From: the human T2T-CHM13v2.0 reference genome, Homo sapiens
Strand: one strand, 5' to 3'
Assembly: GCF_009914755.1 (NCBI RefSeq)
Contig: NC_060925.1
DNA length: 64,000 nucleotides
In this document: positions 15,911-23,768 of the stretch, one piece after another
Position numbering within the stretch: position 1 is the stretch's first letter
How the letters are laid out: each line of letters starts with the position of its first letter
Made by a program: the position numbers and the translations under genes
The notes under the pieces: model-generated
Seen by the model: only the letters and a program-made list of their open reading frames with translations
Told to the model about the DNA's origin: nothing
The model's database searches: none

Positions 15911-15995
15911 ATTCGATGTTACAGAGTCCCAGATCATAATTATAATATGCCAGCTTCTCACAGGAACCCTGGGGCCTTGGTTCTGGAACTTCACG
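15911..15995 (+). CDS. CEPT1: CEPT1 alternative exon 5A: intact paralogue of exon 5, predicted mutually exclusive
   Basis: tttgtttccttatgcatag|ATTCGATG...TTCACG|gtaact; 85 nt, phase 2 to 0, no stop; FDVTESQIIIIICQLLTGTLGPWFWNFT aligns without gaps to exon 5B (15/28 identical). Confidence 0.85.
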
Positions 15996-16697
15996 GTAAC
16001 TGCTAGAATATTCATGCTATCTGATGTACAATGGTGTGAATTCAATAAAGACAGCACCTTTGTCATGCACAGAATAATTAAAACATGAAAAATCAAAAGT
16101 CTTCCTGTTGGTATGTCACAAACAGGTTATTAGAAAACATAATTTTAATATATTAGGGCAATAAAAATCCACCCTATTAAATAAAATTTTTAAAAAGTGG
16201 TATTTCTGGTGATTTGATGCTAAAGTCAATTCTCCTGTTTGCCTATTGTGCCTATTATTTTTATTCTATGTACTATTTTTTAAAACAAATACCTTTCCAC
16301 CAGTAAATAGAATTTTTTTTATATTTCTATTTTGAAAACAGAATAAAGCAAGCAGAGTTTTTCTTAGGTAAGGAAGTTGAGATGATTCTATATTAATGTA
16401 GGAAAGATTCTGCTTATTCTGTTAACTTCTTTAGCATATACTTTAAGCAGTCTAGTACTAGTTCTGCTTGAGTTTACAGCAGTCTTGGTGTTGTATAATA
16501 TTTATGCTGGAAGCTATTCTCATTTCTGTTTGTTTTGCTTAATGTTTTTCACTCTTAGTTGTGCTTTTGAAACTAAATATCCTTAGCTTTTCATGTTACT
16601 ATAGTCATTCTTTGAATACTTTCCTTTTTTGTTTTGTTTTCTTTTCAGTAAATACATATTTCTCTAATGTACTGCTAAAAGTAATGTATCTTTTTCC

Positions 16698-16980
16698 TTT
16701 TTTTTTTTTTTAATTGAGATAGAGTCTCATTTTGTCACCCAGGCAGGAATGCAGTGGCACAGTCATAGGTCACTGCAGCCTTGAAACTCCTGAACTGAAG
16801 TGCTCCTCTCACCTCACCTTTCTGCACTGTCACACCTGGCTAATTTTAAATTTTTTTTTTGTAGAGACAGGTCTTGCTGTGTTGCCTAGGATGGTCTTGA
16901 ACTTCTGGCCTCAAGTAGTCCTCCCGCCTCAGCCTTCCAAAGCACTGGAACTACAGGCATGAGCCACTGCATTCACCCTT
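16698..16980 (-). mobile_element. Alu (AluJ-like)
   Basis: Diverged antisense dimer. Confidence 0.85.
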
Positions 16981-17298
16981 CTTTCTTATAACTGCAGTTT
17001 TGACCTTATGACTTTTAAAAACATTGTTAGGAAATGTTTTCCCAGTAAGATAGTCCAGAATCATTCACACTTTAGCATAAGAAAAAATAGGGCTTAGATT
17101 CAGTTTATTTGGCAGTTCAGAGAATGTTGGAGAACTGTTCAAATGAAAACCTGACAGATCATTATATCAATGCAAGGGTTTATTAAGTTTCCTACATTAG
17201 GTCGCCTGCCCTGAAAAAAAAAAAGAATTGTAAACATTTTAATATTGCTTCAATAATACAGAAATAGTGAATTCCTTGTTGGCCAAGTTCTTTGGTTC

Positions 17299-20540: not shown

Positions 20541-20842
20541 TTATTTATTTATTTATTTTTGAGACAGAGTTTTGCTCTTGTTGCCCAGGCTGGAGTGCAA
20601 TGGCACAGTCTCAGCTCACCACAACCTCTGCCTACCTGGTTCAAGTGATTCTCCCGCCTCAGCCTCCTGAGTAGTTGGAATTACAGGCATGCGCCACCAC
20701 ACCTGTTAATTTTGTATTGTTAGTAGAGACGGGGTTTCTCCATGTTGGTCAGGCTGGTCTCAAACTCCCTACCTCAGGTGATCCGCCTGCCTCGGCCTCC
20801 CCAAAGTGCTGGGATTACAGGCGTGAGCCACCACGCCCAGCC
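20541..20842 (-). mobile_element. Alu (AluSp/Sq-like)
   Basis: Antisense dimer, (TTTA)n tail, TSD ggaaattattt/ggagattattt. Confidence 0.92.
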
Positions 20843-23683
20843 AGGAGATTATTTTAAAGCAGCACCAGTCAAGATGTTCATGTACCTTCATAGATATAGA
20901 AAATTGTGGTTAGTATCATTTAATTTTCTCCCTCTACAACTTTAGGCTGTAGAAATCTAATGCGACACATAAGAAATTTGTTTTCCCATATGTTTTGTTA
21001 AAAAATCACTGGCATTTGGGTCCTCTTTGACCACATACCCCATGTGTCTTGAAGGGTTTTTTGGTTTTGTTTTTTGTTGTTTTTTTCTTGGTGTGGTAGT
21101 AGTGGTCAGTTTCTTTGTTTTGGTTTTGAGGAATAGTCCCAACACTTGGGAATATTACCACTGACGATTCTCCATTTTTAAAATAATAATAACAATAAAA
21201 AGGAAGTGATTACAGACATGCCAAATCCCTGCCCTTATATAATATTCTGTCCTCTAAATAACTGTATTTCCTGTATGATCAAAAAGATTAAAATGAGCCT
21301 CTTTGTAGTATGTGTTACAGTAAATTGAGCCCATACTGAGACTTCTTAGTGGAAAGGTGGAAGAATGGATTGTCATGTAACTAGCTGTCTTCTAAACAAA
21401 ATCATAAACTCTTGTTTATCATTTCTACCACCTGTCCCTCTTAGCTTGCTTTAGTTCCCATTCCTGGGAATGACTTTGCACTGCATGCACCCTTTTTCAT
21501 TGACAGTAAAGATTAGAACCACACTTCCAGGAGTGATGATAGGCAGTTCTCATGATTCAGAGCAGAAGATTCTCATCCTGGAGTTCAGAATATTCTTCTA
21601 AATCAGATAAGCAAATAAAAAATATTCTTAACTAACTACCAACTGGTAAGTAAGTTTTCCTGGCCCTCTCTCCATAACAGTAAGACATTATTCATCTAAT
21701 ACAATGTCAGTATTAGAATGGTTAAGAAAATTCTGTCAAAAGTTTCAAATGACTATTCTATAAAACTTGCCCTAAGAATCCCAATTTGAGACTTTGTAAA
21801 GATCTTTTATGTTTCCTGTTCTCTTTTATATTCATCCATGGTACAAAGATTAATTGCATGAGGTTCCCTCCATTTTTATTTTGTAATTCTATACTTCTGG
21901 CCCTTCCCCTTCCAAAAGGCTACTTCATATATCCAGCAAAATGTTCTAAGATGTCTACCCTCCTCCACCCAAGACAGAATCGATCATCTTTGACACCTAC
22001 CTGCTTAGTCTCCTGAATCTGCTACTGAGTGTAATTCCCCTTATTGGCAACACCACTCACCAGGTCAGCTCTACAGATTCTTTTTAGCCTAATTCAGTCC
22101 ATTTTTTTTTTCAATGTGTATATCAAGATAACTACATCACTGTATGTTTGCAGCTAAATAAGCTTCTGTTTAAAAAACATTCTTGGGCAAACAAAGACCC
22201 ATTTTTTTTTAGTTGCAAGACATTAGTTTCAACCCAGTTATTTATCACAGCATGACAGCTTATGTATCTTAAACTCACATTACAGATTATCTGCTTTACA
22301 TATTTTTAGAAATGGAGGCTCTGTTCTGTTCTGGGAATTGAATCCCTTTGCTGTTGTTACCTACTTTTAGACTAATTACTTTTAATAGATAAATTATTCA
22401 CTTTGTTGAAAAACTAGCATTATAAAAAGGTATACAGTGAAAAGTCTCCTCATTCTTATTTCCCAGCTCCCCAGTTTCTATACTATACTCCCCAATAGGT
22501 AGCCACCACTCTTAGTTTGTAATGTGTCTTTCCAGAAATTTGTTATGCAATTACTGGCAAAAATAAAAGTAGAATATTATTTGTCTCTTTTTTTACACAA
22601 AAAATAGCCTGTACACATTCTGCAACTTATTTTCACTTACTATATCTTTGCTACTTTTTATATCAGTATATAGAGAGCTGCCCTACTCTTTTTAAAAGCT
22701 GTAAAATATTCTATTTTATGGAAGTACCATAATTTATATAACTATTCCCTCTGAGGGAATTTTTTTAAATTATGCTATTATAAATTTATAATTCCATAGT
22801 GAATAACCTTGTACAAACATCATTTTGTGCAAGTATATCTGTAGGGTAAGTTCTCAAAATAGAAGGCATTTGAATCCAGTAATCTAAGAATGATAATCTC
22901 AAAATTGTAGAAGGTGCTAAGTTTACAAGAGGAAAGGAAAAACAGCATATGTTTTGCTTCTCAATCTTTTTGCCCATGTTCTTTTTTTTCACACTTTCAG
23001 GCTTCTAATTTCTGCTGCCCTGTTGTGCATGAGGTTTGTCTCTTCTTGACTGTAAAATTATTTTCAGCAACCCCAAAGCTAATTCTTGGCTGCTTTCAGT
23101 ATCTTCTTTGCAGAAGTCTCAGAGTAGTTAACCTAGTAAGAATAGGAATTTGAGAACTGGAGGAGTTTTTTTTTTCACACCTATACAATGGCAGACATTA
23201 AATGAATATATCTAAAGAACAGTAAGTTTTACAGAGTCTTAGTGATTTATGTTAACTTTAATTAAAGCACACCATTTATTTCATCTGATACTACAAAGCA
23301 CTTATTTCAAGATTTCATATTTTATAACAGTGCAATGTAATCCTCTGCTTGATACTCAAAATTTAATACCTCCTCAATTTTTTTTTTTTTTGGTGGGAAA
23401 GGTTAACCTATGGTTTCAGCCCAACTTCAATGAGTCAGAAATTTCCTTTGGAAAGGAGGGGTTTTTATTGCTCTTTGAAATTCATCAAATTAAATTAAAA
23501 GGCTTTGGATTTTATATGATTTTGCTCATAACAAATTTTTGATGCCTCCTTTTCCCCTTTCCTCAATATTTGAGATTTTTTTTTTCTATTGTGCATGATA
23601 GAGGAATGCTGCTAAGCTTGCAAGTAATTAACTTGAAATTGTTGTGACTAATTCTGCTCTTTTGGCTTTTTGTACCTAATCAG

Positions 23684-23768
23684 AATTGATGTGACTGAAG
23701 TGCAAATCTTCATAATAATCATGCATTTGCTGGCAGTGATTGGAGGACCACCTTTTTGGCAATCTATG
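23684..23768 (+). CDS. CEPT1: CEPT1 canonical exon 5 (5B), 85 nt
   Basis: tttttgtacctaatcag|AATTGATG...TCTATG|gtaact; [28 protein letters not shown]; phase 2 to 0. Confidence 0.96.

What the first reader, a model, noticed from the sequence alone, without database searches (positions are those of the whole stretch)
15911..23768. The exon swap rewrites a putative diacylglycerol-selectivity segment: a splice switch for PC/PE acyl composition
Numbering against the 416-aa protein places the exon at residues 211-238. D212-V213-T214-E215, Q217, I221 and L226 are kept, while V216->S, F219->I, M223->C, H224->Q, A227->T, V228->G, I229->T, G230->L and P233->W change (seen). From memory of CEPT1 mutagenesis (not verified here), T214/E215/V216/I221/V228 affect diacylglycerol utilisation or activity. 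Inference: the 5A isoform retains catalysis but may differ in DAG or alkyl-acylglycerol preference, or in CDP-choline versus CDP-ethanolamine balance. This would let tissues tune Kennedy-pathway output without changing protein size, and it would be invisible on westerns or gels.
Basis: partly seen in the sequence, partly recalled or inferred. Interest (0 to 1): 0.8.

Follow-up and report, generated by a model that had tools for sequence, protein, structure and literature searches.

The report
CEPT1 alternative TM5 exon pair
Human CEPT1 carries two ancient, interchangeable copies of one small exon that rebuild part of the wall of the enzyme's lipid-binding pocket; the exon pair is already catalogued, but whether the swap changes which lipids the enzyme makes has not been tested.

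Summary
Exons 15911-15995 (5A) and 23684-23768 (5) are both 85 nt, share the same phase, are open in frame and encode residues 211-238. They are homologous: 15 of 28 residues identical, reciprocal tblastn E=3.9e-5. Including both or neither gives an early stop.

The pair is already in print as a mutually exclusive, tissue-regulated event (Hatje 2017; Martinez-Gomez 2021) and is in RefSeq.

I found 5A-type isoforms in mammals, birds, squamates, amphibians, sturgeons and a cyprinid.

The human CEPT1 cryo-EM paper places V213, V216, F219 and I220 of TM5 on the acyl-chain chamber wall, and DAG enters between TM5 and TM6. Exon 5A changes V216 and F219, and the two exon types share no residue at 216 across vertebrates. 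So the location claim is supported.

The functional claim (changed DAG or alkyl-acylglycerol preference) is plausible but untested. A head-group shift is unlikely, because the known determinants lie elsewhere.

New here: a nearly invariant N236-x-T238 sequon that only 5A has (25 of 26 segments).

The parts
15911..15995 (+). Exon 5A of CEPT1 (alternative copy): encodes residues 211-238, that is TM5 and the start of the TM5-TM6 loop
   Evidence: Open in the CEPT1 frame, with AG acceptor and GT donor. Homologous to exon 5. An identical peptide occurs in a 215-member cluster of mammalian CEPT1 isoforms.
23684..23768 (+). Exon 5 of CEPT1 (canonical copy, in NM_006090.5): encodes residues 211-238
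   Evidence: The peptide is identical to residues 211-238 of PDB 8GYW/8GYX.
15927..15938 (+). Codons 216-219 of exon 5A (S216, Q217, I218, I219). Positions 216 and 219 line the acyl chamber in the canonical enzyme, where they are V216 and F219.
   Evidence: Codons read. Chamber contacts come from the cryo-EM paper. Residues at 216 do not overlap between exon types across species: V in 9 of 9 canonical segments against S17, T3, L1, A1 in 5A. At 219 the counts are F7, A1, C1 against C15, I5, S2.
15987..15995 (+). Codons N236-F237-T238 of exon 5A: an N-x-T sequon absent from exon 5 (which has Q-S-M)
   Evidence: N236 is present in 25 of 26 distinct 5A-type segments and T238 in 26 of 26, with nine different residues at 237.
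9960..10101 (+). Constitutive upstream exon; its donor splices to either 5A or 5
   Evidence: The hub annotation, and the frame check.
30992..31123 (+). Constitutive downstream exon; its acceptor receives either 5A or 5
   Evidence: The hub annotation, and the frame check.
21919..22063 (+). 145-nt exon of other transcripts, lying between 5A and 5. It shifts the frame and brings an early stop.
   Evidence: a stop follows in every combination tested. It is single copy in the genome at the sensitivity.
23684..23735 (+). Short form of exon 5 (alternative donor, 52 nt): an in-frame loss of residues 228-238
   Evidence: Hub annotation. The translation stays open and lacks 11 residues.

Best explanation
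The two 85-nt exons are an ancient tandem duplicate spliced in a mutually exclusive way. They give two CEPT1 enzymes of 416 residues that differ only in residues 211-238, which form TM5 and the start of the luminal TM5-TM6 loop.

Exclusivity at the protein level follows from arithmetic. 85 is not a multiple of 3, so including both or neither exon shifts the frame into an early stop.

TM5 is one wall of the hydrophobic chamber that holds the acyl chains, and one lip of the lateral cleft through which diacylglycerol enters. Exon 5A keeps the residues that the whole family keeps (D212, V213, T214, E215, G231, W235). It replaces chamber residues V216 and F219 with a hydroxyl residue and a smaller residue, and it also changes A227, V228 and G230.

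I infer that 5A gives an active enzyme whose lipid pocket or gate differs. That would shift which diacylglycerol or alkyl-acylglycerol species are used, or how fast product leaves, in tissues that raise 5A inclusion.

Shown: the exon pair, its frame logic, its conservation, and its position on the structure. Inferred: any change in selectivity or rate.
For: - Anatomy and frame logic.
- Homology: E=3.9e-5 both ways within the window.
- In print: a mutually exclusive exon cluster with tissue-dependent inclusion. Hatje 2017 Dataset EV5 gives Kruskal-Wallis P=6.4e-11 and adjusted P=6.1e-10 over Human Protein Atlas tissues. EV6 gives one ubiquitous exon (Gini 0.049) and one regulated exon (Gini 0.473).
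- Martinez-Gomez 2021 (passages) calls it conserved in sharks and rays, and annotated in RefSeq but not GENCODE.
- My searches: 5A-type segments occur in named isoforms of mammals, birds, squamates, amphibians, sturgeon, paddlefish and a cyprinid (19 proteins among 29 candidates; 13 of 13; 41 among 290). They give 26 distinct segments.
- The two exon types share no residue at 216, 230, 236 and 238, and are nearly fixed apart at 211, 219, 224, 227 and 228 (22 against 9 distinct segments).
- Gene models of cow, a bat and two lizards that wrongly hold both exons show the same 5A-then-5 order.
- Structure: chamber contacts V213, V216, F219, I220. V216L loses 40% of activity and Q217L loses 60%. 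V216A is cited as altering DAG use. DAG enters through the TM5/TM6 cleft. The same slit is seen in Xenopus CHPT1.
- In yeast CPT1 the sn-2 chain runs between TM5 and TM6, and one side-chain change (F146L) flips the C16/C18 preference.
- E215, G231 and W235 are at least 90% conserved in an 80-sequence family alignment, and 5A keeps them.
Against: - No enzyme, lipidomic or protein-level data for 5A turned up in three searches.
- In human 5A, four of the six TM5 residues named in the cryo-EM paper are unchanged (D212, V213, Q217, I220).
- The published V216L effect is modest.
- An ideal-helix test on residues 211-229 did not show the changed residues to be one-sided: moment p=0.49, projection on the chamber face p=0.17.
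Which of residues 223-230 face the pocket is therefore unknown.
- The Hatje tables do not say which identifier is which exon, so I cannot say where 5A is high.
- GENCODE had not annotated the exon as of the 2021 paper.
Confidence: 0.5

Rival explanations
1. The point of 5A is general activity or gating, not substrate choice. In this reading the swap sets the overall rate, the product release or the stability of the enzyme (a slower or faster CEPT1), while the acyl-species preference stays the same.
For: Published single changes on this helix mainly lower activity: V216L by 40%, Q217L by 60%, and D212N also lowers it. The cryo-EM authors propose that product stays in the chamber until the next CDP-choline binds, so the TM5/TM6 cleft could limit the rate.
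Against: V216A is cited as also changing the DAG profile. A single pocket residue changes chain-length preference in yeast CPT1. The type-specific residues are fixed over long evolutionary times, which fits a specific role as well as it fits a rate role.
Confidence: 0.2
2. The important difference is in the luminal loop. 5A adds an N-x-T sequon at 236-238 that is glycosylated, or otherwise changes folding, stability, location or partners, while the pocket changes are secondary.
For: N236 is present in 25 of 26 distinct 5A-type segments and T238 in 26 of 26, with nine different residues at 237 and never proline. Canonical segments have Q, E or D at 236. N at 236 occurs in only 3 of 75 distant family members. 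By the cryo-EM topology the loop should face the ER lumen (my inference). [quoted passage not shown]
Against: By my reading of the sequence, the Asn lies roughly 7 residues after TM5 and about 11 before TM6. That is under the 12-14 residue minimum quoted. CHPT1 has D-Y-T at the same place (5 of 5 segments), so [D/N]-x-T may be a structural turn or helix cap rather than a glycan site. No evidence of CEPT1 glycosylation was seen in any call.
Confidence: 0.15
3. The swap shifts head-group choice, meaning the CDP-choline versus CDP-ethanolamine balance.
For: TM5 borders the catalytic cavity, so an indirect effect cannot be excluded.
Against: In yeast CPT1 head-group choice is set by A97 on TM2 and W35 on the juxtamembrane helix. 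In human CEPT1 the choline group is placed near E65. From memory of the Henneberry 2002 abstract (not seen here), G156 sets dual specificity. None of these lies in residues 211-238.
Confidence: 0.07
4. 5A is splicing noise or a non-coding regulatory exon with no protein role.
For: It is not in the selected transcript, was not in GENCODE in 2021, and no peptide evidence was seen.
Against: The frame stays open and 22 of 28 residues are identical between human and sturgeon (counted from the segments). Type-specific residues are fixed across vertebrates. The third codon position is saturated between the two copies (22 of 28 differ) while the protein is kept. The lack of peptides is expected: the exon sits in a 40-residue hydrophobic tryptic peptide.
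Confidence: 0.03

Closest known systems
Tandem exon duplication-derived substitutions in vertebrate membrane proteins (SLC12A1 exon 4a/b/c, SLC25A3, SLC7A2)
   Same: Adjacent homologous exons of equal length and phase, mutually exclusive because joint inclusion shifts the frame, and conserved for hundreds of millions of years. These genes are named in the same paper that lists CEPT1. From memory, not from a call: the SLC12A1 and SLC7A2 variants differ in substrate affinity.
   Different: For CEPT1 no functional difference has been measured. The protein is a lipid-synthesising enzyme, not a transporter.
Yeast CPT1 versus EPT1 acyl-chain preference (F146L)
   Same: Same enzyme family and same pocket. 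The bulk of one side chain on an acyl channel decides C16 versus C18 DAG preference. Exon 5A likewise removes a phenylalanine (F219) from the chamber wall.
   Different: F146 caps channel 1, between TM4 and TM6. Residues 216 and 219 lie on TM5. In yeast the difference is between two genes, not two splice forms.
CHPT1, the Golgi paralogue of CEPT1
   Same: Same fold and the same TM5/TM6 slit. Like 5A, CHPT1 has a small residue at 219 (A), a hydroxyl residue at 227 (S) and an acidic or amide residue followed by x-T at 236-238. By abstract only, CHPT1 shows a higher preference than CEPT1 for alkyl-acyl species with polyunsaturated chains.
   Different: CHPT1 has I216, F224 and G230 where 5A has S216, Q224 and L230. 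The human CHPT1 interval between the neighbouring exons holds only one copy of this exon.
Canonical human CEPT1 (PDB 8GYW, 8GYX)
   Same: Identical over all window-encoded exons outside residues 211-238. The CDP-alcohol phosphotransferase motif is untouched.
   Different: 13 of 28 residues in TM5 and the loop, including V216S, F219I and the new N236-x-T238.

Membership tests
Mutually exclusive exon pair from tandem exon duplication | Neighbouring exons of the same length and the same phase | tested here: met
   Both are 85 nt with the same phase, and they lie 7.7 kb apart in one intron interval.
Mutually exclusive exon pair from tandem exon duplication | Sequence homology between the two exons | tested here: met
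   15 of 28 residues and 46 of 85 bases are identical. Reciprocal tblastn gives E=3.9e-5, against 0.06 or worse for the next hit.
Mutually exclusive exon pair from tandem exon duplication | Both or neither in one mRNA is not productive | tested here: met
   With both exons the stop comes one codon into the second exon. With neither it comes four codons past the exon 4-exon 6 junction.
Mutually exclusive exon pair from tandem exon duplication | Splice-junction reads from each exon to the flanking exons, bridging the other | not testable with these tools
   No RNA-seq was on hand. Hatje 2017 lists CEPT1 cluster 215 in its expression tables for mutually exclusive exons. The validation table itself is an old .xls file that I could not read.
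Mutually exclusive exon pair from tandem exon duplication | Both copies conserved across species | tested here: met
   5A-type segments run from mammals to ray-finned fish. Canonical segments occur in the same range. Conservation in sharks and rays comes only from the 2021 paper.
CDP-alcohol phosphotransferase, CEPT1/CHPT1 type (Pfam PF01066) | Signature D-x2-D-G-x2-A-R ... G-x3-D-x3-D on TM2 and TM3 | tested here: met
   The motif is present in the window's translated exons (residues 133-158). The Pfam hit on the 5A-type protein P0013 scores 47.5 bits against a cut-off of 22.
CDP-alcohol phosphotransferase, CEPT1/CHPT1 type (Pfam PF01066) | Family-wide residues of TM5 and its loop (E215, G231, W235) are kept in 5A | tested here: met
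   These residues are at least 90% conserved in the 80-sequence alignment, and 5A has them.
CDP-alcohol phosphotransferase, CEPT1/CHPT1 type (Pfam PF01066) | Catalytic activity of the 5A isoform | not testable with these tools
   Needs expression and an assay.
N-glycosylation site | N-x-S/T sequon with x not proline | tested here: met
   N236-F237-T238 in human 5A. N236 is kept in 25 of 26 distinct segments and T238 in 26 of 26.
N-glycosylation site | Luminal position at least 12-14 residues from the membrane | tested here: inconclusive
   The luminal side is inferred from the cryo-EM topology. By my own reading of the sequence, the distance to TM5 is about 7 residues, under the rule quoted. 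Short-loop sites can still be used by STT3B. No helix limits were available.
N-glycosylation site | A glycan is attached | not testable with these tools
   Needs a PNGase F or Endo H shift, or glycoproteomics.

The most novel reading that the evidence does not exclude
Exon 5A makes an ER enzyme tuned to ether-linked or otherwise unusual glycerolipid acceptors (1-alkyl-2-acylglycerol, or particular polyunsaturated species). The canonical Q217 hydrogen-bonds the sn-1 ester carbonyl. Q217 is invariant in the 9 canonical segments and present in 61 of 75 distant relatives. In 5A it is free to vary: Q9, E7, M5, V5 among 26 segments. Next to it, a hydroxyl residue replaces V216, and the bulky F219 is lost. 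An acceptor without an sn-1 carbonyl would not need Q217. If this is so, a splice switch in one gene would steer the Kennedy pathway between diacyl and ether phospholipids.
Probability: 0.12. Interest if true: 0.75.

Novelty: already known. Interest (0 to 1): 0.45.

Why it matters
CEPT1 carries out most of the last step of phosphatidylcholine synthesis in the one cell line tested (abstract). The structural and substrate-preference papers I read do not mention the 5A form.

A second form is conserved from fish to human, is regulated between tissues, and differs exactly on the helix that lines the acyl-chain chamber. It would be a simple, overlooked way to tune membrane lipid species.

The test is cheap. 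Double-knockout cells and a labelled-choline mass-spectrometry assay already exist. The two proteins cannot be told apart by size, and they sit in a tryptic peptide that is hard to detect. That may explain why the isoform has been ignored.

Tried and rejected
- Helical-wheel test. I expected the changed residues to lie on the chamber face of TM5. With an ideal 100-degree helix over residues 211-229 they do not, significantly: p=0.49 and p=0.17. I did not re-cut the helix to rescue the idea.
- Structure prediction of the 5A isoform. There is therefore no model, no fold comparison and no helix limits.
It is not held under its PMC id, DOI or PubMed id. Searches for the residue names with CEPT1, and for 'helix 214', found nothing useful.
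- Competing RNA structures. All 25 inverted repeats listed, of 68 pairs found between the flanking constitutive exons, lie in repeat-masked stretches. The six whose sequences were printed look Alu-like (my reading), so they cannot explain an event older than mammals.
- The flanks of the two exons show no clear likeness beyond the shared donor GGTAACT.
- Splicing-factor motifs. Two TGCATG sites flank exon 5 and none lies within 300 nt of 5A. The motif is not enriched in the window: 35 found against 36.4 expected. This is too weak to build on.
- A second copy in the paralogues. Human CHPT1 has one copy only in the 6.4-kb interval searched. For SELENOI the queries did not detect the TM5 part at all, so that check is inconclusive.
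- Dating the duplication with a tree of the 28 columns. 5A-type segments fall on one side of a branch (98/82). Canonical CEPT1 and CHPT1 segments group together (98/82). But the tree has few columns, long branches and no root, and I kept only 30 of 70 unclassified rows. It cannot separate a duplication before the CEPT1/CHPT1 split from faster change in 5A.
- Which Hatje identifier is 5A could not be settled from the readable supplements. The tables that would say so are old .xls files or PDFs that cannot be read here.
- Two papers that hold both 'CEPT1' and splicing terms were checked and say nothing about this exon.
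Full report
**What is in the sequence.**

Exons 15911-15995 (here 5A) and 23684-23768 (exon 5 of NM_006090.5) are each 85 nt. Each has an AG acceptor and a GT donor, and both donor junctions read G|GTAACT. One base completes the codon of I210 and 28 codons follow, so each exon encodes residues 211-238 of the 416-residue protein. Alignment of a 5A-type protein to the solved human enzyme (PDB 8GYW/8GYX, residues 28-407) confirms this numbering.

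The two peptides share 15 of 28 residues. The 13 changes are I211F, V216S, F219I, M223C, H224Q, A227T, V228G, I229T, G230L, P233W, Q236N, S237F and M238T.

Each peptide finds the other as its only clear match in the window (E=3.9e-5; next best 0.06 to 1.5). At DNA level 46 of 85 bases match, and the differences fall 9, 8 and 22 on codon positions 1, 2 and 3. That is the pattern of an old duplicate held by selection on the protein.

**Why the exons exclude each other.**

With both exons the frame runs into a stop one codon into the second exon. With neither, the stop comes four codons past the exon 4-exon 6 junction. Only mRNAs with exactly one of the two encode a full enzyme.

The 145-nt exon at 21919-22063, used by other transcripts, also brings an early stop in every combination I tried. 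The short form of exon 5 (23684-23735) removes residues 228-238 in frame.

I found no RNA structure that could choose between the exons. The long inverted repeats in these introns lie in repeat-masked stretches, and the printed ones look Alu-like. The flanks of the two exons are not alike.

**What is already in print.**

- Martinez-Gomez et al. 2021 (passages read) state that Hatje et al. found the CEPT1 event. They say the exon is conserved in sharks and rays. Of the three events they credit to Hatje, two were already in RefSeq, without saying which; the hub's annotation of this window lists 15911-15995 as a RefSeq exon. They list CEPT1 among the exons not yet in GENCODE.
- Hatje et al. 2017 Dataset EV5 lists CEPT1 cluster 215. 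Inclusion differs between Human Protein Atlas tissues, with Kruskal-Wallis P=6.4e-11 and adjusted P=6.1e-10.
- Their Dataset EV6 gives one evenly used exon (Gini 0.049) and one regulated exon (Gini 0.473, highest in duodenum). That analysis needs both exons at RPKM 10 or more in some sample.
- I could not tell from the readable files which identifier is 5A.
- Three searches found no paper that studies the function of the 5A form: CEPT1 with 'mutually exclusive', with splice/isoform/exon, and with MXE.

**Conservation, tested here.**

A search with the 5A peptide gave 19 proteins among 29 candidates; it was extended 12 codons into the intron to meet the length minimum. A search with a bird 5A region gave 13 of 13. 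A search with a profile of eight 5A regions gave 41 among 290.

Named hits are predicted CEPT1 isoforms from these groups:
- mammals (one cluster of 215 members whose representative carries an exon peptide identical to the human one);
- birds;
- squamates;
- amphibians;
- sturgeon and paddlefish;
- a cyprinid.

They yield 26 distinct 5A-type segments. Human and sturgeon 5A share 22 of 28 residues (counted).

Among proteins at least 60% identical to the query outside the exon, I compared 22 distinct 5A segments with 9 canonical ones. They share no residue at four positions:

| Position | Canonical | 5A |
|---|---|---|
| 216 | V9 | S17, T3, L1, A1 |
| 230 | G8, C1 | L17, V4, M1 |
| 236 | Q4, E4, D1 | N21, K1 |
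| 238 | M5 and others | T22 |

Positions 211, 219, 224, 227 and 228 are nearly fixed apart. Some of the nine canonical rows may be other paralogues.

Several database models (cow, a bat, two lizards) wrongly contain both exons joined by read-through intron. They show the same 5A-then-5 order.

**Where the segment sits.**

The human CEPT1 cryo-EM paper (results and discussion read) describes a hydrophobic chamber that holds the two acyl tails of a bound phosphatidylcholine.

- V213, V216, F219 and I220 of TM5 are among its walls.
- Q217 appears to hydrogen-bond the sn-1 carbonyl; Q217L loses 60% of activity.
- V216L loses 40% of activity. V216A is cited from Henneberry 2002 as lowering activity and changing the DAG profile.
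- The Xenopus CHPT1 paper describes the same slit.
- In yeast CPT1 the sn-2 chain runs between TM5 and TM6, and a single change (F146L) at a channel exit flips the C16/C18 preference.

Human 5A keeps D212, V213, T214, E215, Q217 and I220, and changes V216 and F219. In an 80-sequence family alignment E215, G231 and W235 are at least 90% conserved, and 5A has all three.

**Limits of the structural argument.**

A helical-wheel test with an ideal helix over 211-229 did not show the changed residues to be one-sided (p=0.49), nor aimed at the chamber face (p=0.17). So beyond 216 and 219, I cannot say which changes touch the lipid.

The recalled mutagenesis of T214, E215, I221 and V228 could not be checked. 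The source paper is not held, and no held paper quotes those residues for CEPT1. From memory only, its abstract speaks of 'helix 214-228' and of G156 for dual head-group use.

**Head group.**

In yeast CPT1, head-group choice depends on A97 of TM2 and W35 of the juxtamembrane helix. In human CEPT1 the choline sits near E65. None of these is in the swapped segment, so I rate a choline/ethanolamine shift as unlikely.

**Comparison within the family.**

Among 75 distant relatives:
- position 227 is T or S in 60 and A in 3;
- F at 219 occurs in 4;
- Q at 217 occurs in 61;
- N at 236 occurs in 3.

The canonical exon's F219 and A227 therefore look derived, while T227 of 5A looks old. S216, Q224, L230 and N236 are particular to 5A.

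CHPT1-like segments (5 of 5) have I216, A219, S227 and D-Y-T at 236-238. 5A thus resembles CHPT1 at 219, 227 and 236-238, but not at 216, 224 or 230.

Position 217 varies within 5A (Q9, E7, M5, V5 of 26) although it is fixed in the canonical exon. This prompts the ether-lipid idea given as the novel case.

Human CHPT1 has a single copy of this exon in the 6.4-kb interval between its neighbours. SELENOI could not be judged. A tree of the 28 columns groups canonical CEPT1 with CHPT1 apart from 5A (98/82), but it is too short and is unrooted, so it cannot date the duplication.

5A creates N236-F237-T238. N236 is present in 25 of 26 distinct segments and T238 in 26 of 26. Position 237 takes nine different residues and is never proline.

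By the cryo-EM topology the loop should face the ER lumen (my inference). The site is close to the membrane. I estimate about 7 residues after TM5, against a quoted minimum of 12-14, though short-loop sites can be used by STT3B. The D-Y-T of CHPT1 suggests a structural motif instead. I rate glycosylation at about 15%. If it occurred, the isoform would be visible on gels after all.

Without a glycan the two proteins differ by 88 Da. The exon lies in a 40-residue hydrophobic tryptic peptide, residues 208-247, which explains the lack of peptide evidence.

**Verdict.**

- The feature is real, ancient and already catalogued.
- The claim that it rewrites part of the lipid-binding wall of CEPT1 is supported by published structure and by the conservation pattern found here.
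- The claim that it changes DAG or alkyl-acylglycerol preference is a reasonable, untested inference, which I put near one half when rate and gating effects are included.
- The head-group idea is weak.

Noticed in passing
window 15987-15995: Exon 5A carries an N-x-T sequon (N236-F237-T238) that exon 5 lacks. N236 is kept in 25 of 26 distinct 5A-type segments and T238 in 26 of 26, with a freely varying middle residue.
   Followed up: partly
window 21919-22063: A 145-nt exon of other transcripts lies between 5A and 5. It shifts the frame to an early stop in every combination tried. It is single copy in the genome at the sensitivity used.
   Followed up: partly
window 23684-23735: An alternative donor inside exon 5 gives a 52-nt form. 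It deletes residues 228-238 in frame, which is the end of TM5 and part of the loop.
   Followed up: no
window 23592-23597 and 23801-23806: Two TGCATG (RBFOX-type) motifs flank canonical exon 5 on the + strand, and none lies within 300 nt of 5A. The motif is not enriched in the window as a whole: 35 found against 36.4 expected.
   Followed up: partly
window 13433-14151, 16702-17528, 20579-20843 against 29686-29982: Several Alu-like repeats in the introns around 5A and 5 are inverted relative to one at about 29.7-30.0 kb, downstream of exon 5. Arms reach 167 nt at 75% complementarity. Such pairs could loop out exon 5 in primates.
   Followed up: no
proteins P0001, P0012, P0025, P0033: Public gene models of cow, a bat and two lizards contain both exons in one protein, joined by translated intron. 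These are mis-models of the mutually exclusive pair.
   Followed up: partly
proteins P0002-P0008, P0010, P0011: Nine short open reading frames (71-81 aa) from unnamed metagenome records match exon 5A plus its downstream intron read-through at 85-98% identity. I read them as animal DNA within such samples, and did not trace them.
   Followed up: no
L013:2657-2740 (own genome, contig C12): Human CHPT1 has a single exon homologous to CEPT1 exon 5/5A and no second copy in the 6.4-kb interval between its neighbours.
   Followed up: yes
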